From a phage, in the sequence record NC_129764.1: a stretch of 51,099 nucleotides of DNA. The stretch is one strand, 5' to 3'. The position numbers and the translations under genes were made by a program. The notes below the pieces were generated by a model. That model worked only from the letters and a program-made list of their open reading frames with translations. It was not told the DNA's origin and searched no databases. This document shows, in pieces, positions 8,191 to 46,702 of this stretch. Each line of letters begins with the position of its first letter. The first letter of the stretch is position 1.

Positions 8191-8420
8191 TGTTCGGTTT
8201 AAGCGAAGTGGAGTGGAATGTTGTAAAGCGTGCCGCGAAGGAATTGAATAAATTCGTTAGCGGAATGAAGAAAGAAGATCGCAAAAACGAAAAGATTATG
8301 ATTGATGTGATCTCAACTCATCACAAAAAGGTTGAGCTACTCATTGACCGATACAAGTTTGTATGGACCGCCGGATATATTGCAGGGCGCGTAGGTAATA
8401 AAGAGTGGGATTACGAATAA
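8190..8420 (+). CDS. hypothetical protein (76 aa)
   Basis: ORF, RBS gggagaggtaaataATG. Confidence 0.5.
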   Translation: MFGLSEVEWNVVKRAAKELNKFVSGMKKEDRKNEKIMIDVISTHHKKVELLIDRYKFVWTAGYIAGRVGNKEWDYE

Positions 8421-8623
8421 TGGCTAACTTACCGAAGAAAGGCGATCAGGTTCGATGCATTACATCACGCAATAGTGATGCTTTCTCAGCGGGATGCTTG
8501 TATGACGTTGAAAAAGTAAGTAAAGCAAAGAGACTCGTATTTGTATACGGAGACGATGGAAACATTCATGAGATTGATTACCCGCAGGATATGACTAAGG
8601 GACAATTCGAAATTAATGATTGA
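8420..8623 (+). CDS. hypothetical protein (67 aa)
   Basis: TAATG overlap start (MANLPKKG); the track start at 8405 is GTG. Confidence 0.5.
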   Translation: MANLPKKGDQVRCITSRNSDAFSAGCLYDVEKVSKAKRLVFVYGDDGNIHEIDYPQDMTKGQFEIND

Positions 8624-8787
8624 CCTGAATCGCTGAGCGGTGATAGTATTAATCCCGTAGACAGACGAGGCGCAAAGAAGCGCAACGCGTGAGACGATTC
8701 TCACACTTCCAGCTAACAAGCTCGGTTGCATAGTGGTTAAGCAACGCCGCAGACCCGTAAGCGGCAACAATTCCAGAGGATTGCATA

Positions 8788-8949
8788 ATGCAAAATATCA
8801 AAGACGAATCAGTCAAAATCGAAATTAAAGTAACTCGCAACGGCAAAACGACTCGTTATAAAAAGCGGTTAAATCCTGGAGAGGCCGTTATTGGTCGCAT
8901 CGATGGCGTTATGATTAAGGCGCAAGAAGATGAAGCGATTCAAAGTTAA
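8788..8949 (+). CDS. small basic protein (53 aa)
   Basis: ATG with RBS ccagaggattgcataATG; below track cutoff. Confidence 0.4.
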   Translation: MQNIKDESVKIEIKVTRNGKTTRYKKRLNPGEAVIGRIDGVMIKAQEDEAIQS

Positions 8950-9115
8950 GTTAATCATTAGAAAGATGGGGATGTTTTGCCAATCATGCAAACAATCTTT
9001 CGAGACTGAATTATCAGCAACCAGTCAGGCAGAAGCCATCACGAAAGCCAAAAAACTTTCAGGCGCTAACCTCGACACTCACAAAATAAACATTGAATTA
9101 ATTAAGGAGATTTAA
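8930..9115 (+). CDS. hypothetical small protein (61 aa or shorter from internal ATG 8966)
   Basis: ORF overlapping the previous small gene. Confidence 0.35.
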   Translation: MKRFKVKLIIRKMGMFCQSCKQSFETELSATSQAEAITKAKKLSGANLDTHKINIELIKEI

Positions 9116-9116
9116 C

Positions 9117-9344
9117 ATGACAGTTTTTTTATTGATTATCGCTGGTGTCATTATTTTTGGTGCTGGTTTGTTTGCTGGATTCGCGCTTGTTGCGGCTGCA
9201 ATTGCGATGGACGCGAAGGATAAAACTGGTGTATGGCTTACCTACTCACCAAAGAAGGACCAATGGGAAATGATTGGCGATCTTGCTCACTGCTACGCTA
9301 AAGCGCAGACCCACCCTAAAGGCATTAAACGACGATTATCGTGA
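9117..9344 (+). CDS. small membrane protein (75 aa)
   Basis: N-terminal hydrophobic helix LLIIAGVIIFGAGLFAGFALVAAAIA. Confidence 0.5.
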   Translation: MTVFLLIIAGVIIFGAGLFAGFALVAAAIAMDAKDKTGVWLTYSPKKDQWEMIGDLAHCYAKAQTHPKGIKRRLS

Positions 9345-9354
9345 TAAATACTAA

Positions 9355-9376
9355 CCCGCCTCGGCGGGTTTTTTTA
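9355..9376 (+). terminator. intrinsic terminator
   Basis: cccgcc-tcg-gcggg stem followed by T7 run. Confidence 0.7.
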
Positions 9377-9393
9377 TGCCTGCAATATGCTAA

Positions 9394-9413
9394 AATAGCA
9401 CTAAATGTTAAAC
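9394..9413 (+). promoter_or_regulatory. dyad motif variant AATAGCACTAAATGTTAAAC
   Basis: Sequence match upstream of packaging genes. Confidence 0.55.
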
Positions 9414-9428
9414 AAAGAGGATTGATTT

Positions 9429-9953
9429 ATGAGTGAACCTAAGAACGCTCCCGTAGTTCAGGGAGGTAATTTCAAAGAGCTATACAAGAAAAAGTTTGGC
9501 ACTGTTCTTGCGAAGAATCGGGCAATGACTCCTGAGCAATTATTCGATCTGTCAGTGAAGTATTTTGAATGGGCCGAAGATAATGCGATCAAGGCGTCAG
9601 AATCAGCCAGCTTCCAGGGTGGCGTTTACGAGTCACTTGTTCATAAGCCGCGCGTCTTCACTTGGACCGGATACCGACTATTCATAGGAGCAAGCGAGGC
9701 CGCAATCATTAAATGGAAACGAGAGGAAGAATACAGTGAGGTTATGGAGTTCGTGGAATCTGTAATCAACGAGCAAAAATTCCAGCTTGCTGCCAACGGT
9801 GTGATTAACGCTTCCTTTATCGGTAAGGATTTGGGAATCGATAAGCCAGCCTCAATCAATATCGAAAACTCGTCAGCTTCCGCATCGACAGTAGTCGCCA
9901 CTACTGAGGATGCAATGAAAGAGGCAGTAAACAGCATTCTTGATATGCTTTAA
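9429..9953 (+). CDS. putative terminase small subunit (174 aa)
   Basis: Position immediately upstream of the large terminase. Confidence 0.5.
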   Translation: MSEPKNAPVVQGGNFKELYKKKFGTVLAKNRAMTPEQLFDLSVKYFEWAEDNAIKASESASFQGGVYESLVHKPRVFTWTGYRLFIGASEAAIIKWKREEEYSEVMEFVESVINEQKFQLAANGVINASFIGKDLGIDKPASINIENSSASASTVVATTEDAMKEAVNSILDML

Positions 9954-9991
9954 CGTTAGGGGCGCGCAAGCGCCCATACAGGAGAATTGAT

Positions 9992-11560
9992 ATGATTCAA
10001 TGGGAAGAACTCGACGCAACTCAGAAGTTAGCGATCAAGAAAATGAGCGAGGCCAATTTCGAAAAAATGATTCGGATCTGGTTCCAGCTTATGCAGGCGC
10101 AGCAGTTCCAGCCTAACTGGCATCACCTTTACCTATGCCACGAAGTGGAGGAAATTATTGCAGGCCGACGCGGGAATACTATCTTTAACGTCACGCCCGG
10201 TTCCGGTAAGACTGAGGTGTTCTCAATCCACCTTCCGGTTTACGCGATGCTCAAGTGTAAGAAGGTGCGAAACCTTAACGTGTCGTTTGCCGATAGCCTG
10301 GTTAAGCGTAACAGTAAGCGAGTGCGTGAGATTATCAGCAGCAACGAGTTCCAGGAGCTATGGCCCTGTAAGTTCGGCACATCAAAAGACGAAGAGATGC
10401 AAGTCCTTAACAGCGACGGTAAGGTCTGGTTCGAACTAATCTCCGCAGCGGCTGGCGGTCGAATTACAGGTTCGCGTGGCGGCTACATGACGCCAGGATT
10501 CTCCGGGATGGTAATGCTCGACGATATAGACAAGCCTGACGATATGTTCTCAAAGGTTAAGCGTGAGCGTACTCACATGCTATTAAAGAACACCATACGA
10601 TCCCGTCGTATGCACAACGAGACGCCGATTATCGCAATCCAGCAGCGACTGCACGCGCAGGATTCAACTTGGTTTATGATGAATGGAGGTATGGGTATTG
10701 AGTTTGATCAGATCTCGATTCCGGCACTAGTAACTGAGGAATACGGAAAGACGCTTCCTGACTGGTTACAACCATACTTCGAGCGCGACGTTTTGTCGTC
10801 TGAGTATGTGGAATTGGATGGAGTTAAGCATTACTCATTCTGGCCCAGCAAGGAGAGTGTTCACGACCTATTGGCTTTGCGCGAAGCGGACCAGTACACC
10901 TTTGATTCTCAGTATCAACAGAAGCCGATAGCGCTTGGTGGCTCCGTGTTTAACTCGGAGTGGTGGACTTATTACGGAAGCAGCCTTGACGCTGACGAGC
11001 CAGATCCGGGTAAATATGATTACCGTTTTATCACCGCTGATACCGCTCAGAAGACAGGTGAGCTAAACGACTACACAGTCTTTTGTTTATGGGGTAAGAA
11101 AAACGATAAGGTTTACTTTATCGACGGCATTCGCGGAAAGTGGGAAGCGCCTGATATGGAGAAACAATTTACCGCCTTCGTGAATCAGGCATGGAGGCAC
11201 AATAAATCAATGGGTGTGCTTCGCAAAATCTACGTGGAAGATAAGGCGAGCGGGACGGGCTTGATTCAGAACTTAAGGAAAAAGACTCCGATCTCAATCA
11301 CACCATTGCAGCGTAACAAAGATAAAGTTACCCGAGCTATGGATGCTCAGCCAGTAATTAAGGCCGGGCGCGTGGTTCTTCCAGAAGAGCACCCTATGCT
11401 TGCGGAAATCATCGCAGAACATAGCGCCTTCACTTACGATGACACCCATCCGCATGATGATATCGTCGATAACTTCATGGATGCGGCGAACATCGAATTG
11501 CTGACCATTGATGATCCTATCGAGAGAATGAAGCGACTCGCCGGGATGGTTAAGCGGTAA
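9992..11560 (+). CDS. terL: terminase large subunit (522 aa)
   Basis: Walker A-like TPGSGKT; size and position before portal. Confidence 0.85.
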   Translation: MIQWEELDATQKLAIKKMSEANFEKMIRIWFQLMQAQQFQPNWHHLYLCHEVEEIIAGRRGNTIFNVTPGSGKTEVFSIHLPVYAMLKCKKVRNLNVSFADSLVKRNSKRVREIISSNEFQELWPCKFGTSKDEEMQVLNSDGKVWFELISAAAGGRITGSRGGYMTPGFSGMVMLDDIDKPDDMFSKVKRERTHMLLKNTIRSRRMHNETPIIAIQQRLHAQDSTWFMMNGGMGIEFDQISIPALVTEEYGKTLPDWLQPYFERDVLSSEYVELDGVKHYSFWPSKESVHDLLALREADQYTFDSQYQQKPIALGGSVFNSEWWTYYGSSLDADEPDPGKYDYRFITADTAQKTGELNDYTVFCLWGKKNDKVYFIDGIRGKWEAPDMEKQFTAFVNQAWRHNKSMGVLRKIYVEDKASGTGLIQNLRKKTPISITPLQRNKDKVTRAMDAQPVIKAGRVVLPEEHPMLAEIIAEHSAFTYDDTHPHDDIVDNFMDAANIELLTIDDPIERMKRLAGMVKR

Positions 11561-11577
11561 TAAATGAGATATAATCA

Positions 11578-11604
11578 AGGCTGTCAATTGACGGCCTTTT
11601 TTTA
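11578..11604 (+). terminator. hairpin plus T-run between terminase and portal (attenuator-like)
   Basis: ggctgtcaattgacggcc near-palindrome followed by ttttttt. Confidence 0.4.
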
Positions 11605-11617
11605 TTGGAGGGAAAGT

Positions 11618-12901
11618 ATGAAAATTGTTAAGCATGATGGTTATAACGATATCTTTAACGGCGGCGCGGACGGCTCACCTAAACCATTTTTTATGGTTGA
11701 TGCGTCATATAACGTCGGCTCATTCTATAACGATAACGCGACAGCGAAAAGAATTGTAGACGTGATCCCTGAAGAGATGGTTACGGCTGGTTTTAAAATA
11801 TCAGGAGTCAAGGATGAAAAGGAGTTCAAATCTCTGTGGGATAGTTACAAAATTGATCCTAGCTTGGTTGATGTTCTTTGCTGGGAGCGCCTATACGGTG
11901 GAGCGGCTATTGTAGCGATCATTAATGACAACAGAATGTTAACCAGCCCTGTTAAACCTGGAGCTAAACTTGAAGGTGTGCGTGTTTATGATAGATTCGC
12001 AATTACAATCGAAAAAAGAGTAACTAATGCTCGATCGCCTCGCTATGGTGAACCTGAGATCTATAAGGTGTCTCCTGGTGACAATATTCAACCTTACTTA
12101 ATCCACCACACAAGAATTTTTATTGCTGATGGTGAGCGAGTAACACCTCAGATTCGAAAGCAGAATCAAGGGTGGGGTGCTTCAGTTTTGAATAAGTCAC
12201 TGATTGATGCGATCTGCGATTACGACTACTGCGAATCTCTAGCGACTCAGATCCTGAGGCGTAAGCAGCAGGCGGTATGGAAAGTCAAAGGTCTTGCTGA
12301 AATGTGTGATGATGATGATGCTCAGTATGCAGCGCGCTTGAGACTGGCTCAGGTTGACGATAATTCAGGTGTTGGCCGTGCGATCGGTATCGATGCCGAG
12401 ACGGAAGAATACGACGTTTTAAACTCTGATATCAGCGGAGTTCCTGAGTTCCTATCAAGCAAGATGGACCGCATTGTCTCGCTTTCTGGTATCCATGAGA
12501 TTATCATCAAGAATAAGAACGTAGGCGGCGTATCAGCGAGCCAAAACACAGCGCTTGAGACTTTCTATAAGCTAGTCGATCGCAAGCGAGAGGAAGATTA
12601 CAGGCCGCTTCTTGAGTTCTTGTTGCCGTTCATTGTTGACGAAGAAGAGTGGTCCATCGAGTTTGAGCCGCTGTCGGTCCCGAGCAAGAAAGAAGAATCC
12701 GAGATCACGAAGAACAACATTGAGTCGGTAACGAAAGCTATCACCGAGCAAATCATCGATCTGGAAGAAGCTCGCGACACGTTACGATCCATTGCGCCTG
12801 AGTTCAAACTCAAGGATGGTAATAACATCAACATTCGCGAACCGGAAGAAACAACAGAGCCGGAACCGGGATTAGGGGGGAAGTTAGAAGATGAAAATTA
12901 A
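11618..12901 (+). CDS. portal protein (427 aa)
   Basis: ATG with RBS ggagggaaagtATG; large ORF directly after terminase. Confidence 0.75.
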   Translation: MKIVKHDGYNDIFNGGADGSPKPFFMVDASYNVGSFYNDNATAKRIVDVIPEEMVTAGFKISGVKDEKEFKSLWDSYKIDPSLVDVLCWERLYGGAAIVAIINDNRMLTSPVKPGAKLEGVRVYDRFAITIEKRVTNARSPRYGEPEIYKVSPGDNIQPYLIHHTRIFIADGERVTPQIRKQNQGWGASVLNKSLIDAICDYDYCESLATQILRRKQQAVWKVKGLAEMCDDDDAQYAARLRLAQVDDNSGVGRAIGIDAETEEYDVLNSDISGVPEFLSSKMDRIVSLSGIHEIIIKNKNVGGVSASQNTALETFYKLVDRKREEDYRPLLEFLLPFIVDEEEWSIEFEPLSVPSKKEESEITKNNIESVTKAITEQIIDLEEARDTLRSIAPEFKLKDGNNINIREPEETTEPEPGLGGKLEDEN

Positions 12902-13652
12902 TGGCGTTGCAACACAGTGGCGCTATCCTGAAATGAGCGAGCGCGCAATGTCGCGCCCCTTACAGGATGTTGCAGCCAGACTAACAGAAAGAATGCGTGA
13001 CGAATTAAAGCCGATGAAATTTGACGCTACCGACGAAGAGATAGATCAGACAGAAAGGTCATTGCTTGATTACGTCGAATCACTCATCGCTCCGATTATT
13101 GGTTCTCTATCATCCGTTGCGCTCGCGATCTATAAATTCAACTCTAAGCAGTGGCTGCGCATCGCTCGCAATGCTGGAGGTAAGAAGAATCAAGCCGTGA
13201 TGCTACTTGCCCTGATTGGTCCTACCGCTGCCGAAAGCTGGTACTCAGGACAATATAATCTGTGGCGATCGCAGGTGACTACTTCTATCAGGAAATTTGC
13301 CGCCAACATGGTTACTGATTTCACTGATAAACTTCGTGCGGCATCCGGTCAGGGTAAAAGCAAGGATTTTGTTGTTGAACTTGCTAAGGAGCGATTTGGT
13401 ATTTACCGTAGCTGGGCCAAAAATAGAGCGTCGGGAATTGTCGGAACCTGGAACAGTAGACTGATGCGGCAGCGCATAAAAGACGCTGGTGTATCTTACT
13501 ATTTCTGGCGCGGGGTGATGGATTTACGCGAACGTGAAAAACATGTAAGATGGGAAGGTAAGCGCATAGCGGTAGATTCCGATCACGTATTCCCGGGTGA
13601 AGAATACAACTGCCGCTGTTGGGCTGTTCCAGACTTTTCTACAGGAGATTAA
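12891..13652 (+). CDS. minor head / head morphogenesis protein (253 aa)
   Basis: Synteny after portal; overlaps portal stop. Confidence 0.55.
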   Translation: MKINGVATQWRYPEMSERAMSRPLQDVAARLTERMRDELKPMKFDATDEEIDQTERSLLDYVESLIAPIIGSLSSVALAIYKFNSKQWLRIARNAGGKKNQAVMLLALIGPTAAESWYSGQYNLWRSQVTTSIRKFAANMVTDFTDKLRAASGQGKSKDFVVELAKERFGIYRSWAKNRASGIVGTWNSRLMRQRIKDAGVSYYFWRGVMDLREREKHVRWEGKRIAVDSDHVFPGEEYNCRCWAVPDFSTGD

Positions 13653-13654
13653 AA

Positions 13655-14767
13655 ATGAAGGCAAAGCAAAGATTCGATTCAGTAAAAATCAAGGCTCACT
13701 TTGATGATAACGGTTTTTTAGTTGACCGCCCAATCGTGGCGCGAATCGGCGCTCAGGTTTACAAAACGCCGCACGGCGATCGAGTTGAGTTCCGTCCGGC
13801 GTCCGAAGTTTTCAAGCAAGATTCCTTGCAAAGTTTTGCAGGCAAGCCGATCACAGTCGGTCACGTAACTGTGACTCCGCAAAATGCTAAGGACGTTGTT
13901 GTAGGATCGTGCGCTGGCGCTGGTATTGCTTCAGGCGTTGGAGTTGAAGTCCCTTTGAGCATTTACAGCGACTACGCGATCAGCAAGGCTAAAGCAAAAG
14001 AAGCTGGTGAATTATCTGTTGGCTACACGTCAGTAGATATTGATAAGCCGGGATGGGGTTCAAATGAGACTGGAGAATATATCTTCGAAGAGGATATGAA
14101 ACAGGACGAAGCGCCGCCTGAAGGTTGGGTTAAATTCGATGCTGTTCAAACAAACATCAAGGTAAACCACATTGCACTTGTTTTCAAGGGTCGCGCTGGA
14201 ATTGCTAAATTAAACCTTGATGCAGAGCAGGAGTTCCCGTATGATAATAACGTTCAATTAACTAACGAGGACAAGCAAATGAAAAAAATTAAGATCGACT
14301 CAGTTGATGTGGAAGTGACCGAAGATGTTGCGAACCATATCGAAAAATTAACCGCGCAGATTGCCGCCATTCAGGGGAAAGCTGATGGCTTCGAAGCTGA
14401 GCGCGATGCGCTGAAGGTTAAGGTTGACTCCCTGCCGGAACTGGTGAAGGCCGAAGTAGAGAAGCAAAAAGCTGACGCCGCAGCGCGTGCTGAAGTCACC
14501 GCAGTAGCGGAAACCGCAGGCGTTAAGCATGATGGTCTTGATATCAAAGACGTTAAGGTAGCTGTTGTCAAAGCCATGCTTGATAAAGATGTTAGCGAAA
14601 AATCAGACGCATATATCGACGCTATGTTTGATGTTGCTAAGGATTCTGATATTATGGCTATTCAGCGTAAGGCGGTAAAAGGCGATTCTATCGAAGGCGG
14701 TAAGCCGGAAGAGAAAAACGACGCCGCACCTGTTACGCCAAATTCACGTTTAAGCAAAGTAATGTAA
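13655..14767 (+). CDS. putative scaffold or prohead protease-scaffold protein (370 aa)
   Basis: Position before capsid; Ala/Lys/Glu-rich predicted coiled-coil C-terminal half. Confidence 0.5.
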   Translation: MKAKQRFDSVKIKAHFDDNGFLVDRPIVARIGAQVYKTPHGDRVEFRPASEVFKQDSLQSFAGKPITVGHVTVTPQNAKDVVVGSCAGAGIASGVGVEVPLSIYSDYAISKAKAKEAGELSVGYTSVDIDKPGWGSNETGEYIFEEDMKQDEAPPEGWVKFDAVQTNIKVNHIALVFKGRAGIAKLNLDAEQEFPYDNNVQLTNEDKQMKKIKIDSVDVEVTEDVANHIEKLTAQIAAIQGKADGFEAERDALKVKVDSLPELVKAEVEKQKADAAARAEVTAVAETAGVKHDGLDIKDVKVAVVKAMLDKDVSEKSDAYIDAMFDVAKDSDIMAIQRKAVKGDSIEGGKPEEKNDAAPVTPNSRLSKVM

Positions 14768-14778
14768 GGGGAAATATC

Positions 14779-15255
14779 ATGGCACAGATTAATGCATCTT
14801 ATCAGCGAGACATGGCTATTGCGCTTCCGGGTATGGTTGCGGATACTTCGAAGTATAATATTGATGGCGCTTGCGTCGTTAACGAAGGTGATGTTTTTGT
14901 TGGCGCTGCCGTACAGGTTGTTCAAGCCCAAGCCGTTGACGGCCATAAATTGGTTAAGGCTATGGAATCGTCTAAAGTGCCGTATGGCGTAGCTATTCGA
15001 TCTCACTGGCAGACTGTGAACAAAGATAATCAGATGATTTACGAAGATGGCGGTGCTATCAACGTCATGACCTCCGGGCGAGTCTGGATGCTTTCCAAAT
15101 CAGAAGAAGCACCAACTTTCGGGACCGCTGTAAAACTTGACGTTGACGGTCAAGAGAAATCTGATGGTACGATCGAAACAACTTGGACCTACGCTGGCGG
15201 CTGGACCAAATATAAAGACATTCAGCTTGTTGAAGTTCAGTTGCATCAACTGTAA
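14779..15255 (+). CDS. capsid-associated protein, paralogue 1 (158 aa)
   Basis: Paralogous to the next ORF (TSKYNIDGACVV vs TSTYNIDGSCVA; PYGVAIRS vs PYGIAFRS). Confidence 0.5.
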   Translation: MAQINASYQRDMAIALPGMVADTSKYNIDGACVVNEGDVFVGAAVQVVQAQAVDGHKLVKAMESSKVPYGVAIRSHWQTVNKDNQMIYEDGGAINVMTSGRVWMLSKSEEAPTFGTAVKLDVDGQEKSDGTIETTWTYAGGWTKYKDIQLVEVQLHQL

Positions 15256-15270
15256 TTAGTGTTTAATATG

Positions 15271-15300
15271 GGGACTATCCTTTTGGGTAGTCCTTTTTTT
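15271..15300 (+). terminator. intrinsic terminator
   Basis: gggactatcc-tttt-gggtagtcc stem followed by T7. Confidence 0.6.
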
Positions 15301-15314
15301 ATGGAGAAAATACT

Positions 15315-16082
15315 ATGCCTTACGAAAATTTAATGTTACGCCCGGCGTGCCCTGGTAATCTTTCGGATACTTCAACCTACAATATTGATGGATCTTGTGT
15401 TGCCCAAGGCGATATTGAGTTCGGCTCCGCTGTTAAAGTTATCGGTATTGTTGACGGCGTTAAGGTTGTTTCCACGCTTACTGATGGTGAAACACCTTAC
15501 GGAATCGCTTTCCGTTCCCAATATGAACACCTGAGCGGTAAAATCCTCGACGGTGAAGTTTGCAACGTCGTTTCTCATGGTCGCGTGTGGACGCTAACTT
15601 CTCTTGATGAAGCTCCGGCCTTGTTCTCAAAGTTACAATTTGGATCTGGTGGTGTTGTTACTGGTAGCTCTGGTTCCGTAGGTTGGACTTTTGCTGGTGG
15701 ATTTGTTAAGCACGAGGACGGGTACATTATTGAGGTTCAGGTTAAGCAAAATGCCTTTATTGTTCCACCTCCACCCCCTCCCGTGGTTCTTGTTGAGTCT
15801 GCGACGATTACAACTAACAAGGAGAGTCCTCAGCCAAACAATGCACCTGTGCAATTTAACGTTGCTGTAAAACCTGACAATGCCACCGATAAAACTGGCG
15901 TGTGGTCTGTTGATGCTGAAAATATTGCGACAATAGATCCAAAATCTGGCGTTCTTACTCCAATTGGTGGAGATGCGGCAGGTAGCGTAATCGTAAATTG
16001 GACGGCTAACGATGCCAGCAAAACTAAAGAATCGATCACTTATGTTTTTGATGCTGCGCCAACCGAAGAAGAAGAGTCATAA
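15315..16082 (+). CDS. capsid-associated protein, paralogue 2, with poly-Pro linker and Ig-like (Big_2-like) C-terminal domain (255 aa)
   Basis: Paralogue of 14779-15255; PPPPPPVV linker; C-terminal segment resembles bacterial Ig-like domain. Confidence 0.5.
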   Translation: MPYENLMLRPACPGNLSDTSTYNIDGSCVAQGDIEFGSAVKVIGIVDGVKVVSTLTDGETPYGIAFRSQYEHLSGKILDGEVCNVVSHGRVWTLTSLDEAPALFSKLQFGSGGVVTGSSGSVGWTFAGGFVKHEDGYIIEVQVKQNAFIVPPPPPPVVLVESATITTNKESPQPNNAPVQFNVAVKPDNATDKTGVWSVDAENIATIDPKSGVLTPIGGDAAGSVIVNWTANDASKTKESITYVFDAAPTEEEES

Positions 16083-16101
16083 CACAAAAATACTTTGACG
16101 C

Positions 16102-16120
16102 TTTAACAAAAAGTGCTATT
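16102..16120 (-). promoter_or_regulatory. dyad motif copy, reversed (plus strand TTTAACAAAAAGTGCTATT)
   Basis: Sequence match; lies between TTGACG and TATTAT upstream of the capsid gene. Confidence 0.55.
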
Positions 16121-16126
16121 ATTGAA

Positions 16127-16153
16127 GCCGTGAACATAATCACGGCTTTTTTT
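16127..16153 (+). terminator. intrinsic terminator or attenuator in capsid gene leader
   Basis: gccgtgaacataatcacggc stem followed by T7. Confidence 0.6.
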
Positions 16154-16174
16154 ATTAACTAAGGAGAAGTAATC

Positions 16175-17134
16175 ATGACTACTAAAAAATTTGATGAAGC
16201 AGATAAGAGCAATGTTGAAATGTATCTGATCCAGGCTGGCGTAAAACAGGATGCAGCCGCAACGATGGGTATCTGGACCGCTCAGGAACTACACCGCATC
16301 AAAAGCCAGTCCTATGAAGAAGACTACCCGGTAGGCTCCGCACTTCGAGTATTCCCGGTTACTACCGATCTATCTCCGACCGACAAGACGTTTGAGTATA
16401 TGACCTTTGATAAGGTTGGTACTGCGCAGATTATCGCTGACTATACAGATGACCTGCCTCTGGTTGATGCGCTTGGTACTTCTGAGTTCGGTAAGGTGTT
16501 CCGCTTGGGTAACGCGTACCTGATTTCAATCGACGAAATCAAAGCAGGTCAGGCAACTGGCCGACCGCTGTCAACCCGCAAGGCAAGCGCGTGTCAGTTA
16601 GCGCATGACCAACTGGTTAACCGTCTGGTGTTCAAAGGTTCCGCGCCGCACAAGATCGTGTCCGTGTTCAACCATCCGAACATCACCAAAATTACCTCCG
16701 GTAAGTGGATGAATGTCTCAACTCCGAAGCCGGAAACGGCTGAAGCGGAATTGACTCAGGCGATTGAAACCATCGAGACGATTACTCGCGGTCAGCATCG
16801 TGCAACCAACATTCTGATCCCGCCGTCCATGCGTAAGGTTCTGGCGATCCGTATGCCTGAAACTACCATGTCTTACCTGGACTATTTCAAGTCTCAGAAT
16901 GCTGGTATCGAAATCGACTCTATCGCAGAGCTTGAAGATATCGACGGTGCGGGTACTAAAGGCGTACTGGTGTACGAAAAAAATCCGATGAATATGTCCA
17001 TCGAGATCCCGGAAGCATTTAACATGCTGCCAGCGCAGCCGAAAGACCTTCACTTTAAAGTGCCTTGCACCTCCAAGTGTACTGGCCTTACAATTTATCG
17101 TCCGATGACTATTGTCTTAATCACTGGCGTGTAA
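16175..17134 (+). CDS. major capsid protein (319 aa)
   Basis: Strong RBS aaggagaagtaatcATG; flanked by terminators; position in head module. Confidence 0.7.
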   Translation: MTTKKFDEADKSNVEMYLIQAGVKQDAAATMGIWTAQELHRIKSQSYEEDYPVGSALRVFPVTTDLSPTDKTFEYMTFDKVGTAQIIADYTDDLPLVDALGTSEFGKVFRLGNAYLISIDEIKAGQATGRPLSTRKASACQLAHDQLVNRLVFKGSAPHKIVSVFNHPNITKITSGKWMNVSTPKPETAEAELTQAIETIETITRGQHRATNILIPPSMRKVLAIRMPETTMSYLDYFKSQNAGIEIDSIAELEDIDGAGTKGVLVYEKNPMNMSIEIPEAFNMLPAQPKDLHFKVPCTSKCTGLTIYRPMTIVLITGV

Positions 17135-17141
17135 TATTATA

Positions 17142-17168
17142 GGGACTAACTTAGTTGGTCCCTTTTTT
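17142..17168 (+). terminator. intrinsic terminator after capsid gene
   Basis: gggactaac-tta-gttggtccc stem followed by T6. Confidence 0.7.
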
Positions 17169-17183
17169 ATTGGAGAAATCAAA

Positions 17184-17474
17184 ATGGCTAAAGAAAAAAC
17201 TGTTGTTATCGTAAACGTTGGTGTAGCGCTTCAGATGTTCCGTCTTGAAGATGGCTCATTCGCAAAGGTTCTCCCGGATGAAGAGGTGACACTCCCAGCA
17301 TCCGCACTTGAATTGCCCGGGCTGCGTTGCTTGATTGCTCGCGAAGAAATCGAAGTAAAAGACGACAGTGCCACCAACCGGGAAATCCGCGCAGAGATGG
17401 CTAAACTTAAAAAACCTGATCCGTGGGATAAGATGAGCGTAAAAGAGCTTGAAGACGGCGGCGAATACTATTAA
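17184..17474 (+). CDS. hypothetical head-associated protein (96 aa)
   Basis: ORF with RBS ggagaaatcaaaATG. Confidence 0.5.
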   Translation: MAKEKTVVIVNVGVALQMFRLEDGSFAKVLPDEEVTLPASALELPGLRCLIAREEIEVKDDSATNREIRAEMAKLKKPDPWDKMSVKELEDGGEYY

Positions 17475-17481
17475 TCAACAA

Positions 17482-17504
17482 GGCGCTTAATGCGCCTTTT
17501 TTTT
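17482..17504 (+). terminator. intrinsic terminator
   Basis: ggcgcttaatgcgcc stem followed by T8. Confidence 0.7.
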
Positions 17505-17517
17505 ATAGGTGGAAATT

Positions 17518-17931
17518 ATGGATCAAGAAACATTAAACAAAGTGGTCGAGCAAATGAGAAAGCTGGTTCCGGCACTTCGCAAGGTTCCAGACGAAACGCT
17601 TTATGCATGGGTAGAAATGGCTGAGCTATTTGTATGCCAGAAGACCTTTAAAGATGCATACGTCAAGGCGCTTGCTCTTTATGCATTGCACCTTGCTTTC
17701 CTTGATGGGGCGCTAAAAGGTGAAGATGAGGATCTTGAATCGTACTCACGACGCGTTACGTCATTCTCCCTGAGCGGTGAATTTAGCCAGACTTTTGGAG
17801 AGGTGACGAAGAACCAGTCAGAGAACATGATGCTTTCGACGCCGTGGGGTAAGATGTTCGAACAGCTTAAAGTGCGACGCCGTGGTCGATTCGCATTAAT
17901 GACAGGACTCCGTGGAGGATGCCACCAATGA
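17518..17931 (+). CDS. head completion / head-tail connector protein (137 aa)
   Basis: Synteny; ATG with RBS aggtgg. Confidence 0.5.
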   Translation: MDQETLNKVVEQMRKLVPALRKVPDETLYAWVEMAELFVCQKTFKDAYVKALALYALHLAFLDGALKGEDEDLESYSRRVTSFSLSGEFSQTFGEVTKNQSENMMLSTPWGKMFEQLKVRRRGRFALMTGLRGGCHQ

Positions 17932-18299
17932 ACTACTCACAGATCGAAAGGATGGCTCGCAAAGGCGTGGCTTTCTTCACCGATGCATCAAGACCTATGA
18001 ACCTGATAAAGCAAGGTGAATACGGATATGATGAAAACGGATTCGAGATCCCACCGATGGAACAGGTTATTCCAATATCCGGCGCGACGCGAAGACCGAA
18101 CGCGCGTGAGATTGACGGGGAGACTATCCGCGCCTCAGACCTTTTGGGGATCTTCAATAACGACCATGAAATAAACGAAGGTGACTATATAGAGATTGAC
18201 GGCGTTCGTCATGTTGTCGTTGATGCTCGCCCGGTTCAGGCGTCACTGAAACCAGTCGCCTATCGCCCAGTATTGCGGAGGGTATCAGTAGGTGGCTAA
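17919..18299 (+). CDS. head-tail joining protein (126 aa)
   Basis: Synteny; overlapping start. Confidence 0.5.
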   Translation: MPPMNYSQIERMARKGVAFFTDASRPMNLIKQGEYGYDENGFEIPPMEQVIPISGATRRPNAREIDGETIRASDLLGIFNNDHEINEGDYIEIDGVRHVVVDARPVQASLKPVAYRPVLRRVSVGG

Positions 18300-18735
18300 T
18301 TATCAGATTCGTAGATTTCAAGGTGAGATTGATGCGTGGATTAAGGCCGCTGAAAGCACGTTAGAACATTCCATTGAGATATTTGTAAGGGATGTTCACG
18401 ACGCGCTCGTTAGCCGTTCTCCCGTCGACACGGGGCGCTTTAAGGGTAACTGGCAGATAACTTTTAACGAAATCCCTAACTACGCATTAAATCGATACGA
18501 TAAAACTGGCGGCGTCGTCCGTAGTGAGGAGCAAGCCAAAACTTATGGCATGTTCAGCCGTGGGGGCGCGATAACATCCGTTCACTTCTCAAACATGTTG
18601 ATTTATGCAAACTCTCTTGAGTACGGTCATTCACAACAAGCACCAAACGGCGTCGTCGGGCTGGTTGCATTGAGATTGCGATCGTATATGGCAGACGCAA
18701 TAAAGCAAGCAAGGAGACAACAAAATGCACTATGA
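18292..18735 (+). CDS. tail completion protein (147 aa), GTG start
   Basis: Synteny. Confidence 0.5.
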   Translation: MANYQIRRFQGEIDAWIKAAESTLEHSIEIFVRDVHDALVSRSPVDTGRFKGNWQITFNEIPNYALNRYDKTGGVVRSEEQAKTYGMFSRGGAITSVHFSNMLIYANSLEYGHSQQAPNGVVGLVALRLRSYMADAIKQARRQQNAL

Positions 18736-19123
18736 GTTATCAGCGGCGGCGCGAGCCGCCTTTCTGTCGAAGTATAGAGACTTTCCTCACTACATGGAAA
18801 ACAGGAACTTTACACCACCGAAGGATGGCGGCATGTGGCTAAGGTTCAACTACATTGAAGGGGATACGCTTTATCTATCAATTGACAGAAAGTGTAAATC
18901 TTACATTGCAATAGTTCAGATCGGAGTTGTGTTCCCTCCTGGTTCCGGCGTTGATGAGGCAAGATTGAAAGCAAAAGAGATTGCTGATTTTTTCAAAGAT
19001 GGTAAAATGCTTAACGTTGGTTATATTTTCGAAGGTGCAATCGTGCATCAAATTGTTAAACACGAAAGCGGATGGATGATTCCGGTTCGCTTTACAGTAC
19101 GAGTAGATACAAAGGAGACTTAA
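18725..19123 (+). CDS. tail terminator-like protein (132 aa)
   Basis: Synteny directly upstream of major tail gene. Confidence 0.5.
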   Translation: MHYELSAAARAAFLSKYRDFPHYMENRNFTPPKDGGMWLRFNYIEGDTLYLSIDRKCKSYIAIVQIGVVFPPGSGVDEARLKAKEIADFFKDGKMLNVGYIFEGAIVHQIVKHESGWMIPVRFTVRVDTKET

Positions 19124-19124
19124 T

Positions 19125-19793
19125 ATGCACTTACCAAATGGCGCGCAAATTTTCGTGGAAACCTCTCGCGGAGAAGAGATCGAGGCGACCGCTGTCACTA
19201 ACGCAAAAAATCCTGTTGCTACAGTTGCATCTAAGGGCGACTTGGCAAAAGGTGATTACGTTATTGTAACTCAGTCAACTTGGGCTAAGATGGTTAGTCG
19301 AGTACTTATTGTTACCGATGCTCAGGAAACAAGCATTACTCTTGCTGGAATTGACACTACTGATACTCTTGTTTTCCCGGCTGGCGGTACGATGAGCTTT
19401 GCAAAAGTTACTGGCTGGACTGAGATTCCTTGCGTACAGGAGATTGGTCAGGACGGCGGTGAGCAGCAGTACTACACTTATCAGTGTTTGTCAGACGATA
19501 AAGAGCAGCAGATCCCGACGTTTAAATCTGCAATCTCGCTAACTTACACCTTCGCGCACGAATTTGATAACCCGATCTACCCTATTCTGCGTAAGCTGGA
19601 TTCTTCTGGTCAGGTAACTGCGGTTCGTATGTATGTTCCAAAAGCGAACGAGATGCGCATGTGGGCTGGCATCTTGTCTTTTAACGACATTCCGTCTACG
19701 CAAGTAAACGAAATGGAAACGGTACAACTAGCCGTATCCCTGAAGGGTGATTTCACTTTCGTTTCATCCTCTCTGGCATCACCTGGTGCCTAA
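19125..19793 (+). CDS. major tail protein (222 aa)
   Basis: Position before chaperone and tape measure; followed by terminator. Confidence 0.6.
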   Translation: MHLPNGAQIFVETSRGEEIEATAVTNAKNPVATVASKGDLAKGDYVIVTQSTWAKMVSRVLIVTDAQETSITLAGIDTTDTLVFPAGGTMSFAKVTGWTEIPCVQEIGQDGGEQQYYTYQCLSDDKEQQIPTFKSAISLTYTFAHEFDNPIYPILRKLDSSGQVTAVRMYVPKANEMRMWAGILSFNDIPSTQVNEMETVQLAVSLKGDFTFVSSSLASPGA

Positions 19794-19805
19794 ATCATAT
19801 CCACA

Positions 19806-19826
19806 GGGGGCTTGCGCCCCCTTATT
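19806..19826 (+). terminator. intrinsic terminator
   Basis: gggggcttgcgccccc stem followed by ttatt. Confidence 0.6.
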
Positions 19827-19866
19827 CATTTCTGTAAAATCATCGTATCAACTTTTCACTATTCTC

Positions 19867-19886
19867 TTTTAACAAAAAGTGCTATT
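19867..19886 (-). promoter_or_regulatory. dyad motif copy, reversed (plus strand TTTTAACAAAAAGTGCTATT)
   Basis: Sequence match directly abutting the RBS aaccaatcaggag of the tail chaperone gene. Confidence 0.55.
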
Positions 19887-19906
19887 AACCAATCAGGAGA
19901 AATATC

Positions 19907-20224
19907 ATGGCTAAATTTAATTTCGTTCTTGGTCAACTTCCAGACTTCAAACTTCCAGTCACCTTCACCATGCCTAACGGTGAAGATGCAACGATCATTT
20001 TCACTGTACGCCACCTTTCCAGTAAAGAAGTTCAGGATATGTATGCCAACCAGGGAGAAATGAACGATAGCGAGTTCATTACCAAGATCGCGTCAGGATG
20101 GAACCTTGAAGAAGAATTTAACGAAGAAAATGCGCGAAAACTGGTTCAGTATTATCCTTCAGCAGCGTACAATCTGACAGCGACTTACATCAAGGCTCTC
20201 GCCGGACACCGCGCAAAAAACTAA
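19907..20224 (+). CDS. tail assembly chaperone (G-like, 105 aa)
   Basis: Position between major tail and tape measure; ends at slippery site. Confidence 0.65.
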   Translation: MAKFNFVLGQLPDFKLPVTFTMPNGEDATIIFTVRHLSSKEVQDMYANQGEMNDSEFITKIASGWNLEEEFNEENARKLVQYYPSAAYNLTATYIKALAGHRAKN

Positions 20225-20541
20225 AAAGGGCGGTCTATCTGTTATATCAGAAGCCGCCAACAGAGGAACAATTGCGATCGGTTGGCTTAAGTCTTTCCGA
20301 CTATGAAGACGAGGAGCCTGAAACGATAATTGGCGACGCTGAAATGGTGAAGGCTTGGAATGTTTTTACATCAATGCTCACCCAGTGGAGAAGTTCAGGC
20401 GCTGGCGCTTACGGTCTTGATTATAATGTTTTGCCTATGTTGTTTAAAATCTATAAAATAGAAGATGAAGAACTGGCATTGCAGGACGTTAGGATCATGG
20501 AAGCGAAAGCGCTTGAAATGATTGCTAAGCAGAATAACTAA
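19907..20541 (+). CDS. tail assembly chaperone -1 frameshift fusion product (GT-like)
   Basis: The -1 frame is open from 20110 to 20541 and overlaps the G-like ORF; heptamer A_AAA_AAC at 20215-20221. Confidence 0.5.
20215..20221 (+). other. putative -1 programmed ribosomal frameshift slippery heptamer AAAAAAC
   Basis: X_XXY_YYZ pattern in zero frame just before the G-like stop; conserved strategy in tailed phages. Confidence 0.5.
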
Positions 20542-20542
20542 G

Positions 20543-20563
20543 CCGCCGTTTGGCGGTTTTTTT
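20543..20563 (+). terminator. weak intrinsic terminator
   Basis: ccgcc-gttt-ggcgg stem followed by T7. Confidence 0.5.
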
Positions 20564-20580
20564 GTATATAAGGGGGTTAT

Positions 20581-23454: not shown

Positions 23455-23456
23455 TA

Positions 23457-23810
23457 ATGGCGGCACTTGATACTTTTAGTTGGTGTACGCAGGTTCAAGG
23501 GGGCGGCGGCTCCCTCACCACTACCAACAATGACAGATCCATACAGTTTGGCAACGGCTACATGCAGCTTGCATCTTCTGGATTTAACACCACGAGACGC
23601 GAGTATTCGGTTGTCTACGCTGGTGATGATTTCATGGCTGTTTACAACTTCTGTGATTCTCATCGAATTAAACCTTTCGCATGGACACCTCCAGACGGGA
23701 AGATCGGGGTATGGGTAGTTAAGCCAAATAGTTTGGGAGCGAAACCTGTATCACGGGACGTGATGGAAATTAACGTAACGTTTATGGAGCAGTTTACATC
23801 TATGCAATAG
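23457..23810 (+). CDS. minor tail protein (M-like, 117 aa)
   Basis: Synteny after tape measure. Confidence 0.65.
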   Translation: MAALDTFSWCTQVQGGGGSLTTTNNDRSIQFGNGYMQLASSGFNTTRREYSVVYAGDDFMAVYNFCDSHRIKPFAWTPPDGKIGVWVVKPNSLGAKPVSRDVMEINVTFMEQFTSMQ

Positions 23811-23826
23811 CACTTAGTGACAAAAG
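23806..23826 (+). promoter_or_regulatory. dyad motif variant AATAGCACTTAGTGACAAAAG
   Basis: Partial match; stop TAG embedded. Confidence 0.4.
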
Positions 23827-23848
23827 CCCGCCTTGCGCGGGTTTTTTT
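23826..23848 (+). terminator. intrinsic terminator (cccgccttgcgcggg family)
   Basis: Perfect stem followed by T7; followed by TAGAATGG. Confidence 0.7.
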
Positions 23849-23889
23849 GTAGCTGTAGAATGGTTGCAACTAAACAAGAGGAAAAGAAA

Positions 23890-25999: not shown

Positions 26000-26005
26000 A
26001 ACCAA

Positions 26006-26028
26006 CCCGCCTTGCGCGGGTTTTTTTT
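26006..26028 (+). terminator. intrinsic terminator (cccgccttgcgcggg family)
   Basis: Same stem as 23827; T8 run; followed by TATAATGG. Confidence 0.7.
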
Positions 26029-29529: not shown

Positions 29530-29536
29530 AATATAA

Positions 29537-29558
29537 GGGGCCGAGTGGCCCCTTTTTT
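29537..29558. terminator. bidirectional intrinsic terminator
   Basis: ggggccgagtggcccc stem with T-run on plus and A-run upstream; sits between convergent genes. Confidence 0.7.
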
Positions 29559-32347: not shown

Positions 32348-32421
32348 ACGGCACAAATAGCTAAACAAATAATTAATGAGGTGTTATAATGCACCTCATA
32401 CACCAATCAGGAGAAGTTAAG

Positions 32422-33069: not shown

Positions 33070-33115
33070 TCATCAGGGCGGCTTCGGTCGCCCATAAATT
33101 TTAGGAGAGAAAATT

Positions 33116-45075: not shown

Positions 45076-45079
45076 GTTG

Positions 45080-46648: not shown

Positions 46649-46702
46649 CACAATAAACTCCTTAGTTGACGGTGTGAATGATACACCGCCAATGTTACAC
46701 GC

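What the first reader, a model, noticed from the sequence alone, without database searches (positions are those of the whole stretch)
8624..8787. Structured 165-nt non-coding segment with its own sigma70-like promoter: candidate small RNA or regulatory leader
Between the genes ending at 8623 and starting at 8788 there is no ORF and no dyad motif. Instead there is TTGACC, 18 nt, TAGTAT (8624-8653), then several short inverted repeats (gtgagacgattctcac at 8691-8706; ttgc-N11-gcaa; gccgc-N10-gcggc). This intergenic region is far longer than the others in the early block and differs from the standard cassette, so it may encode a small RNA or a structured 5' leader.
Basis: inference. Interest (0 to 1): 0.45.

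Follow-up and report, generated by a model that had tools for sequence, protein, structure and literature searches.

The report
Conserved structured leader RNA, T1-like phages
The gap between two small genes of this T1-like phage encodes an undescribed, strongly conserved folded RNA that starts at its own promoter just upstream of the DNA-packaging and late genes, and it most likely controls how far transcription runs into them.

Summary
The window is a Tunavirus (T1-like phage), and the gap lies between the homologues of T1 genes 58 and 57, about 650 bp upstream of the small terminase gene.

In this sequence alone the promoter match and the 4-6 bp hairpins are no better than chance. Comparison with about 60 distinct homologous copies from across Drexlerviridae makes them significant:
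- The extended -10 promoter sits at a fixed 5-nt distance from a conserved 5' box.
- Four hairpins (P1-P4) are kept by many compensatory changes. P1 and P2 are 95% paired, against 68% in shuffles, and 8 of 9 pairs change on both sides. P4 has 11 different stems, all paired. P3 differs in every lineage.
- No reading frame is conserved.
- There is one copy per genome and no Rfam family.

Two architectures exist. In the window type, the last hairpin has no U-tract. In Hanrivervirus-like phages, the last hairpin is an intrinsic terminator abutting the next gene's ribosome-binding site. In three lineages a tRNA gene follows the element, directly in two of them.

Best reading, about 0.4 for the mechanism: a cis-acting leader that governs termination or antitermination at the head of the terminator-rich late cluster. 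The main rival is a stable trans-acting small RNA. The function is untested.

The parts
8620..8649 (+). Sigma70 extended -10 promoter. The -35 TTGACC is at 8620-8625 and overlaps the stop codon of the upstream gene. TG is at 8641-8642 and the -10 TAGTAT at 8644-8649. The spacer motif CTGAnnGGT is conserved.
   Evidence: 9 of 12 match with TG. TTGAC and CTGAnnGGT are kept in all 19 lineages collected by BLAST, independently of any pattern. The -10 lies a constant 5 nt (4 in one lineage) from the conserved 5' box.
8655..8669 (+). Conserved single-stranded 5' box, CCGUAGACAGACGAG. The predicted transcription start is about 8656-8657, so the box is the 5' end of the RNA. Family consensus is nCGUnnACnnAnGAG.
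   Evidence: Invariant columns G3 U4 A7 C8 A11 G13 A14 in 43 distinct sequences. The start position is inferred from the -10 distance and was not measured.
8670..8683 (+). Hairpin P1: GCGC / AAAGAA / GCGC.
   Evidence: All 4 pairs change on both sides across relatives and 96.5% of cells are paired. RNAalifold predicts it independently.
8684..8688 (+). Conserved junction AACGC between P1 and P2.
   Evidence: A30 A31 G35 are invariant and C32 G33 nearly invariant.
8689..8704 (+). Hairpin P2: GUGAGA / CGAU / UCUCAC. The loop is semi-conserved (GCGAUA or CGAU).
   Evidence: 4 of 5 scored pairs change on both sides and 94% of cells are paired. RNAalifold agrees.
8711..8722 (+). Small hairpin P2a (AGCU / AACA / AGCU), lineage-specific and found in Tunavirus only.
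   Evidence: Direct reading. Absent or different in other genera. Vilniusvirus has a different insert hairpin here.
8725..8745 (+). Hairpin P3: GUUGC / AUAGUGGUUAA / GCAAC. It is preceded by the conserved UCGG at 8722-8725 and abuts P4.
   Evidence: A hairpin fills this exact slot in 22 distinct type A sequences, with at least 10 unrelated stem sequences.
8746..8765 (+). Hairpin P4: GCCGC / AGACCCGUAA / GCGGC. The stem is always 5 bp and the loop always ends in CGUAA. In the window it has no U-tract.
   Evidence: 11 distinct stems are 100% paired, against 72% in shuffles (0 of 2000 reach it). Pairs 2-5 change on both sides. In type B relatives the equivalent hairpin is a 9-bp stem followed by a U-run.
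8766..8773 (+). Conserved 3' tail AACAAUUC (AACCAUUC in most other genera). It is kept even where a tRNA gene follows.
   Evidence: In LF82-10 and Vilniusvirus the tRNA-Ser starts directly after this tail in Vilniusvirus and one base after it in LF82-10.
8768..8783 (+). Possible hairpin P5: CAAUUC / CAGA / GGAUUG. It covers part of the Shine-Dalgarno sequence of the next gene (ATG at 8788). It is weakly conserved.
   Evidence: Present in the MFE fold. Clear in T1 and phage ES, weak or absent in Tlsvirus and others (reading).
8788..9344 (+). Three small genes transcribed behind the element: gp57-like at 8788-8949, gp56-like CxxC protein at 8930-9115 and gp55-like membrane protein at 9117-9344.
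   Evidence: The gp56-like gene follows the element in every lineage examined. gp57 is replaced or absent in several.
9353..9370 (+). Strong intrinsic terminator (AACCCGCCUCGGCGGGUU + U7) between the small genes and the small terminase gene (9429-9953). It is the first of at least 8 strong co-directional terminators in the late cluster.
   Evidence: Annotated in T1. Conserved in TLS and a Hanrivervirus-like contig.

Best explanation
The segment encodes a roughly 110-120-nt structured non-coding RNA on the + strand. A conserved extended -10 sigma70 promoter fixes its 5' end.

The RNA has a conserved unpaired 5' box, then hairpins P1 and P2, a variable linker, and hairpins P3 and P4. The P4 loop always ends in CGUAA.

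I propose that it acts in cis as a leader that decides whether RNA polymerase starting here goes on through terminators into the downstream genes. Those are three small genes, then the terminase and the terminator-studded head and tail cluster. This would be a processive-antitermination or attenuation element. It would work like HK022 put if RNA alone suffices. It would work like a nut site or the conAn system if a phage protein is also needed.

Shown: the promoter, the RNA structure and their family-wide conservation. Also shown are the terminator form in relatives and the position at the head of a cluster with many terminators.

Inferred: the transcription start, that the RNA acts on RNA polymerase, and any antitermination.
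For: 1. It is a functional RNA and not chance.
- P1 and P2 are 95.1% paired against 67.7% in shuffles. 8 of 9 pairs change on both sides. The covariation score is 0.747 against 0.250 (0 of 500 shuffles reach it), and slid controls reach at most 0.10.
- P4 has 11 different stems, all paired.
- P3 is a different hairpin in the same slot in 22 sequences.
- RNAalifold recovers P1, P2 and P4 with 10 of 12 pairs compensated.
- No frame is open across lineages.

2. It lies on the + strand and starts at the promoter.
- The promoter elements and the 5-nt gap between the -10 and the box are constant.
- U-tracts follow the last hairpin on the + strand in type B.

3. A cis role is favoured.
- In type B the terminator's U-tract runs straight into the ribosome-binding site of the next gene. 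There is no room for another promoter, so downstream genes depend on read-through.
- The immediate downstream gene varies (gp57-like, gp56-like, another gene, or a tRNA). The position upstream of gp56, gp55, the terminator and TerS is constant. That points to operon-level control rather than gene-specific control.
- The late cluster carries at least 8 strong co-directional terminators in the window (33 found against 19 +/- 4.2 expected). Ten lie between TerS and the tail genes in the T1 annotation, and an eleventh sits immediately upstream of TerS.
- The 2024 TLS re-annotation found only three intergenic sigma70 promoters.

4. There is one copy per genome: 69 bits, with the next best hit at 11 bits.

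5. put RNA works just downstream of its promoter and does not need to stay tethered (PMC9378689). A tRNA inserted after the element is therefore compatible with this reading.
Against: - No transcript, termination or antitermination data exist for any of these phages in the papers searched.
- The model of the 5' half finds nothing in the HK022 immunity region that holds putL and putR (best 6 bits). No boxA-like sequence is present. Any likeness to put or nut is therefore functional analogy only.
- A copy of the phage's repeated 'early cassette' motif lies at 9395-9412, between the terminator and TerS. If that motif is a promoter, TerS does not need read-through.
- The window form has no terminator of its own. 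The conserved structure must therefore do something that does not depend on P4 terminating.
- The T1 authors, as cited in PMC11447400, favoured separate promoters in each late module.
Confidence: 0.4

Rival explanations
1. It is a stable trans-acting small RNA gene. Termination at P4 would release the RNA in type B phages. Processing would release it in type A phages: RNase P where a tRNA follows, or RNase E in the A/U-rich tail AAC(A/C)AUUC. It would then act on a host or phage RNA or protein.
For: - It has its own conserved promoter with a fixed 5' end.
- An intrinsic terminator gives a discrete RNA of about 105 nt in type B.
- tRNA genes sit just behind it in three lineages, as in an RNA-gene cluster: directly behind it in two, and behind an extra hairpin in phage ES.
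- Type B has an A/C-rich unpaired linker (ACAACAAC) plus a U-tail, which resembles Hfq-binding sRNAs (own knowledge).
- The element does not depend on the identity of the next gene.
Against: - No contiguous conserved seed exists. The 5' box keeps only scattered invariant positions and differs at 4-5 positions among phages of the same host.
- The window form lacks a terminator.
- In type B the downstream genes have no promoter of their own, so the terminator must be leaky or regulated. That makes the RNA a leader as well.
Confidence: 0.3
2. It is a gene-proximal sensor or translational leader, riboswitch-like or protein-binding. It would control expression of the genes directly behind it (gp57, gp56, gp55) through a terminator in type B phages or through Shine-Dalgarno occlusion (P5) in type A phages.
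For: - Variable stems with highly conserved unpaired nucleotides (5' box, AACGC, GCGAUA loop, UCGG, CCGUAA loop) are typical of aptamers.
- The split between terminator forms and forms abutting a ribosome-binding site is typical of riboswitch expression platforms.
- P5 covers part of the SD in the window.
- The always-present downstream gene gp56 has an HMA-like GMxCxxC motif.
Against: - P5 is not conserved.
- The first downstream gene varies and is a tRNA in two lineages.
- No clear alternative anti-terminator pairing with covariation was found. The pairing between the 5' box and the P4 loop seen in one lineage is not compensated in others.
- No Rfam riboswitch matches.
Confidence: 0.15
3. 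The conservation reflects a DNA-level site, such as the packaging (pac) site, a replication origin or an operator for a phage regulator, and not an RNA.
For: - The element lies about 650 bp upstream of the terminase genes.
- The promoter spacer (CTGAnnGGT) and the initially transcribed bases are conserved as sequence.
- The motif CGUnnAC / CGUAA(GA)C occurs twice.
Against: - Stems change sequence freely while keeping pairing, including 14 G-U cells that would be A-C on the other strand. A protein-binding DNA site would not behave this way.
- Loops vary in length.
- The T1 record annotates the 2.8-kb repeat_region (terminal redundancy) at 1-2800, far from here. The TLS pac site was mapped to a different restriction fragment and assigned by its likeness to the P22 pac sequence.
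Confidence: 0.05

Closest known systems
HK022 put RNAs (putL, putR): cis-acting, factor-independent processive antiterminator RNAs
   Same: It is a structured RNA of stem-loops made directly downstream of a sigma70 promoter, as putL is. It sits at the head of a long co-directional phage operon punctuated by terminators. put needs no tether to the elongation complex (PMC9378689), which would tolerate the tRNA insertions seen here.
   Different: There is no sequence or structure similarity. put is about 70 nt with two long stems, whereas this element is about 110 nt with three to five short hairpins. put occurs twice per genome, this element once. Activity on RNA polymerase is untested here. In many relatives the element ends in a terminator.
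Lambda PR'-qut-tR' late leader (the 194-nt '6S' transcript) and Q antitermination
   Same: It is a conserved constitutive-looking promoter followed by a short leader. In type B relatives the leader ends at an intrinsic terminator, just upstream of the terminase and late genes. Sequence is conserved within the promoter spacer and the first transcribed bases, which is where Q-binding and pause elements lie in lambda (own knowledge).
   Different: Lambda's leader is not known to need RNA structure, whereas here the RNA helices covary strongly. No conserved -10-like pause hexamer is evident in the 5' box (reading). No Q homologue was identified among the neighbours.
conAn bipartite antitermination system of Gram-positive conjugative plasmids (RNA element plus small protein)
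   Same: It is an RNA element at the start of a very long operon with internal terminators, next to small genes of unknown function that could supply a processivity factor (PMC8191782).
   Different: The hosts and replicons differ. conAn2 is described as a large RNA element. Homology was not examined, and no protein partner is shown here.
Hfq-dependent small RNAs and 5'-UTR-derived sRNAs released by premature termination
   Same: It has its own promoter and a size of about 105 nt. It has hairpins, an A/C-rich linker and a Rho-independent terminator with a U-tail in type B relatives.
   Different: The window copy has no terminator. No conserved seed exists. Genes follow without a promoter of their own.
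Phage T4 tRNA-cluster stable RNAs (species 1 and 2) and P1 c4 / P4 CI RNAs matured by RNase P
   Same: In LF82-10 and Vilniusvirus the element sits immediately 5' of a tRNA. In Braunvirinae (phage ES) the tRNA follows after an extra hairpin. Where the tRNA is adjacent, RNase P would define the element's 3' end.
   Different: There is no Rfam C4 match at E up to 10. No tRNA follows in the window. No complementary target boxes were found.

Membership tests
Any Rfam 15 RNA family | Covariance-model match at the gathering score, or at least a suggestive E-value | tested here: not met
   No hit at gathering score in the whole window. At E up to 10 there were only two chance archaeal snoRNA matches on the promoter. 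In 14 relatives of both architectures only the neighbouring tRNAs matched.
HK022 put antiterminator RNA | Sequence and structure similarity to putL or putR | tested here: not met
   Model R1 (5' box, P1, P2) against the HK022 region 27500-33500, which holds the immunity region. The best hit was 6 bits. The reverse test with a put model was not possible.
HK022 put antiterminator RNA | Located downstream of a promoter and upstream of terminators in the same transcription unit | tested here: met
   The promoter is at 8620-8649 and the element at 8655-8773. Terminators lie at 9353, 11577, 15270, 16124, 17141, 17480, 20540 and 26004 on the same strand.
HK022 put antiterminator RNA | Factor-independent suppression of termination through binding the beta' zinc-binding domain | not testable with these tools
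   This needs in vitro transcription or rpoC mutants.
Lambda-type nut site | boxA (CGCUCUUA) followed by a boxB hairpin with a conserved loop | tested here: not met
   The best boxA match in 8620-8790 has 3 of 8 mismatches and lies in the promoter. P1 loops vary freely in sequence and length.
Intrinsic (Rho-independent) terminator | GC-rich stem directly followed by a U-tract | tested here: not met
   In the window the 8 nt after P4 are AACAAUUC (2 U). Type A copies have 1-3 U in 36 of 37 cases. Type B relatives have 4-8 U after a 9-bp stem. The feature is met in relatives but not in the window.
tRNA or tRNA-like gene | Cloverleaf recognised by ARAGORN or the Rfam tRNA model | tested here: not met
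   ARAGORN finds none in the window or in T1, SRT8, IME347 and Sazh. The D-loop-like P3 loop AUAGUGGUUAA is confined to Tunavirus and Vilniusvirus.
Trans-acting base-pairing sRNA | Contiguous conserved single-stranded seed | tested here: inconclusive
   The 5' box has only scattered invariant positions. The only contiguous conserved run is the 5-6-nt (C)CGUAA in the P4 loop. No target search was feasible.
Riboswitch | Conserved aptamer core with alternative expression platforms and a consistent functional class of regulated genes | tested here: inconclusive
   The core is conserved, and both terminator forms and forms next to a ribosome-binding site occur. The first downstream gene varies and can be a tRNA. 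No ligand is known.
Protein-coding gene | An open reading frame conserved among relatives | tested here: not met
   At least 10 of the 23 lineages have stops in all six frames within the 165 nt. No frame is consistently open. Loop lengths differ by 1-2 nt between close relatives.

The most novel reading that the evidence does not exclude
The element is a new class of promoter-proximal processive-antitermination RNA. It may work with one of the small conserved proteins encoded behind it. It would license host RNA polymerase to read through the dozen intrinsic terminators of the T1-type late cluster. That would explain how T1-like phages, which encode no RNA polymerase or sigma factor, switch on late genes.
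Probability: 0.25. Interest if true: 0.85.

Novelty: new member of a known kind. Interest (0 to 1): 0.62.

Why it matters
T1 is one of the seven classic T phages, yet how it times late transcription with an unmodified host polymerase is still unknown. Its relatives, including the Drexlerviridae of the BASEL collection and SECphi27, are workhorses of current anti-phage defence research.

A family-wide structured RNA sits at the entrance to the packaging and late genes. It has two interchangeable architectures and a clear set of compensatory mutations to test. That gives a concrete, cheap experimental handle on the question.

Public annotations currently leave the region blank or cover it with spurious ORFs. 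Examples are the over-extended Sazh gp29 start, PHB07 gp56 on the wrong strand and SP-126 SP126_00170. A covariance model for this element would also clean up hundreds of genome records.

Tried and rejected
- **Rfam:** searched at gathering and permissive thresholds on the window and 14 relatives. Nothing matched.
- **tRNA or tRNA-like reading of P3 and P4:** rejected.
- **Pseudoknot or anti-terminator pairing between the 5' box and GUAAGAC(G) in the P4 loop:** nearly perfect in one Hanrivervirus-like lineage. The box varies while the loop stays fixed, so there is no compensation.
- **Pairing of the P2 loop CGAU with AUCG of the UCGG linker:** possible in many lineages. A-to-U changes in TLS, Sazh and LF82-10 break it without compensation (reading).
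- **K-turn, ANTAR, ops and boxA readings of the conserved loops:** none fits. I judged this by eye, apart from the boxA check.
- **RNAduplex search for targets of the element in the downstream mRNA:** gave only long spurious duplexes.
- **Bacterial genome scan with the promoter-plus-box pattern:** returned only chance matches. None of the 100 loci searched with the model scored as real.
- **Literature search for transcriptomes or RNA elements of T1-like phages:** nothing found.
- **Catalogue of 8,495 viral candidate RNAs (PMC10690425):** it may list this element anonymously, but its supplements are not held.
- **Full-length covariance models of each architecture and a metagenome scan:** not run, because the pattern is too unspecific for that collection.

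Full report
**What the window is**

BLAST of 8400-9000 against phage genomes finds 82 records. The best complete genomes are Shigella and Escherichia Tunavirus phages at 90-97% identity, and coliphage T1 matches at 90.5%. The gap at 8624-8787 corresponds to the unannotated space between T1 genes 58 and 57. Behind it lie three small genes, gp57-, gp56- and gp55-like, all of unknown function. Then come a strong intrinsic terminator at 9353-9370, the small terminase gene at 9429-9953 and the large terminase gene at 9992-11560.

**Checking the observation**

- TTGACC is at 8620-8625 and overlaps the TGA stop of the upstream gene.
- After 18 nt, TAGTAT is at 8644-8649, preceded by TG at 8641-8642, which makes an extended -10.
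- The hairpins are P2 GTGAGA/CGAT/TCTCAC at 8689-8704, P3 GTTGC/N11/GCAAC at 8725-8745 and P4 GCCGC/N10/GCGGC at 8746-8765.

On this sequence alone nothing is significant.
- Promoter-like sites are as frequent as in shuffles (26 against 25.1).
- The fold z-scores are -1.67 on the + strand and -1.88 on the - strand.
- No inverted repeat reaches 8 nt.
- Mechanical ORFs do cross the gap.

**Comparative evidence**

Homologous gaps were collected in two ways. The first was BLAST from several starting points. The second was a scan of IMG/VR with a promoter-plus-5'-box pattern that says nothing about the hairpins. Together they gave about 60 distinct copies.

The copies come from Tunavirus, Sertoctavirus, Badaguanvirus, Tlsvirus, Changchunvirus, Vilniusvirus, Braunvirinae, Jhansiroadvirus, Hicfunavirus and Henuseptimavirus. 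They also come from Hanrivervirus-like phages (my assignment of the hits) and unclassified Enterobacter and Klebsiella phages.

All copies share the following:
- TTGAC, then a spacer with CTGAnnGGT, then a -10.
- After a constant 5 nt (4 in one lineage), a box nCGUnnACnnAnGAG.
- Hairpin P1, then AACG(C), then hairpin P2.

On a MAFFT alignment of 43 distinct 5' halves:
- P1 and P2 are paired in 95.1% of cells, against 67.7% in shuffles.
- 8 of 9 pairs change on both sides.
- The covariation score is 0.747 against 0.250 (0 of 500 shuffles reach it), and slid controls stay at or below 0.10.

P4 has 11 different 5-bp stems, all fully paired, against 72% in shuffles (0 of 2000 reach it). P3 is a different hairpin in exactly the same slot in 22 distinct sequences. 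RNAalifold, run blind on 12 diverse copies, recovers P1, P2 and part of P4, with 10 of 12 pairs compensated.

At least 10 of the 23 lineages have stops in all six frames, and no frame is consistently open across them. The element is therefore a structured RNA and not a gene.

The + strand is indicated by three things: the promoter, the U-tracts in relatives, and 14 G-U cells against 8 A-C cells. The last is weak evidence.

A covariance model of the 5' half finds one copy in the window (8655-8715, 69 bits, next best 11 bits). It finds nothing real in the 100 bacterial loci searched with it, out of 120 that matched the search pattern by chance.

**Two architectures**

Type A is the form in the window, T1, TLS and others. 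The linker ends in UCGG. It is followed by P3, then P4 (always 5 bp, loop ending CGUAA), then a tail AAC(A/C)AUUC and the ribosome-binding site of the next gene. There is no U-tract: the next 8 nt hold 1-3 U in 36 of 37 copies.

Type B occurs in Hanrivervirus-like phages, Henuseptimavirus and more than 125 GenBank records. P3 is missing. The CCGUAAGA motif sits in an internal loop of a single long hairpin. The 9-bp lower stem of that hairpin covaries and is followed by 4-8 U, which makes it an intrinsic terminator. The next gene's Shine-Dalgarno sequence begins 2-5 nt after the U-tract, so that gene can be transcribed only by read-through.

In Vilniusvirus and LF82-10 a tRNA-Ser(GCU) follows the tail, starting directly after it in Vilniusvirus and one base after it in LF82-10. 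In Braunvirinae a tRNA follows after an extra hairpin.

The first protein gene behind the element differs between lineages. A gp56-like CxxC protein, a gp55-like membrane protein, a terminator and TerS follow in the lineages where the downstream region was held.

**Mechanism**

The steps shown are these:
- a conserved promoter placed so that the conserved box is the 5' end of the transcript;
- conserved RNA helices with conserved unpaired nucleotides;
- a terminator form whose downstream genes depend on read-through;
- a constant position at the entrance of a co-directional cluster that carries many intrinsic terminators.

The window has at least 8 strong terminators on the + strand between 9.3 and 26 kb, with 33 terminator-like sites against 19 +/- 4.2 expected. 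The T1 record annotates ten between TerS and the tail genes, plus an eleventh immediately upstream of TerS. The 2024 re-annotation of TLS found only three intergenic sigma70 promoters, none of them this one.

From this I infer that the RNA most likely acts in cis on elongating RNA polymerase. It would work either as an antiterminator or as a regulated attenuator that gates transcription into the packaging and late genes. The closest working analogues are HK022 putL, the lambda PR'-qut-tR' leader and the RNA-plus-protein conAn system.

It is not a member of the put family. The model finds nothing in the HK022 immunity region, there is no boxA, and no Rfam family matches in any lineage.

Weaknesses of this reading:
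- No expression data exist.
- The window form lacks its own terminator.
- A copy of the phage's repeated cassette motif (ATAGCACnnnTTGyTAAA) lies between the terminator and TerS at 9395-9412. The motif has 34 matches against 5.8 expected. If it is a promoter, read-through is not needed for the terminase.

**Rivals**

A stable trans-acting small RNA explains the terminator form and the tRNA neighbourhood. It has no conserved seed, and in type B it must still serve as a leader.

A riboswitch-like or protein-binding sensor explains the conserved unpaired bases and the two 'expression platforms'. It does not explain the changing downstream gene, and I found no compensated alternative pairing.

A DNA site (pac, origin or operator) is hard to square with freely covarying stems. 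It also conflicts with where T1's terminal repeat is annotated and with the mapping of the TLS pac site to a different fragment.

**Novelty**

The element is absent from Rfam 15. It is not annotated in T1, TLS or any record inspected, and it is not mentioned in the papers searched. A 2023 catalogue of 8,495 anonymous viral candidate RNAs could include it, but I could not check this.

I rate it a new member of a known kind: a phage-encoded structured leader or small RNA. There is a real chance, about 0.25, that it is a new type of antitermination RNA.

**Verdict**

The mechanism remains inferred.

Noticed in passing
window 8930-9115 (+): The gp56-like 61-aa protein follows the RNA element in every lineage examined. 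It carries an invariant G-x-x-C-x-x-C-x-Q motif and a nearly invariant T-H. A profile of 17 homologues weakly matches the GMxCxxC copper-binding HMA domains of ATP7B (E 4e-4 for the whole chain, individual stretches weak). Pfam HMA scores below its cut-off (18.8 against 24.8 bits).
   Followed up: partly
window-wide, e.g. 1345, 2085, 3106, 4372, 5749, 6269, 7564 (+); 44542-49942 (-); 9395-9412 (+): The repeat ATAGCACnnnTTGyTAAA has 34 matches with up to 3 mismatches, against 5.8 expected. It corresponds to the 21-nt direct repeat described for TLS. Copies sit upstream of early genes in the direction of transcription. One copy (1 mismatch) lies between the terminator at 9353-9370 and the small terminase gene. 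Its function is unknown.
   Followed up: partly
window 16102-16119 and 19868-19885 (- strand): Two perfect copies of the same repeat lie in reverse orientation inside the + strand late cluster. Each is next to a + strand terminator (16124-16149 and 19805-19822). At 16095-16122 the + strand also reads as a 10 of 12 promoter match (TTGACG-16-TATTAT).
   Followed up: no
window 9353-26022 (+): The terminase-to-tail cluster holds at least 8 strong co-directional intrinsic terminators: 9353, 11577, 15270, 16124, 17141, 17480, 20540 and 26004. The stems at 9353 and 26004 are near-identical (AACCCGCC...GGCGGGTT).
   Followed up: partly
L005 2551-2638; L040 and L041 1375-1462; L042 1403-1475; L114 1198-1272: tRNA genes are inserted directly behind the RNA element. 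These are tRNA-Ser(GCU) in LF82-10 and Vilniusvirus, and a tRNA in Braunvirinae phage ES and a related IMG/VR contig. They replace the gp57-like gene.
   Followed up: partly
L004 1488-1697 (Sazh gp29); L043 1218-1343 (PHB07 gp56, - strand); L046 1252-1527 (SP-126 SP126_00170): Public annotations place protein-coding features over the RNA element. The Sazh gp29 start is probably 69 nt too far upstream (the likely ATG is at L004 1557). The PHB07 and SP-126 features are probably spurious or over-extended.
   Followed up: partly
GenBank MG065640-MG065685, seen: About 20 records named 'Campylobacter phage', with host Campylobacter jejuni, are 92-94% identical to the E. coli Hanrivervirus-type element over 130 nt. 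Host mislabelling or contamination seems likely.
   Followed up: no
L019 4700-4900 (IMGVR_UViG_2974611450_000001): One Tunavirus copy has clustered substitutions that break P2 and P4 and scramble the start of the next gene. It could be a decayed copy or a poor assembly.
   Followed up: no
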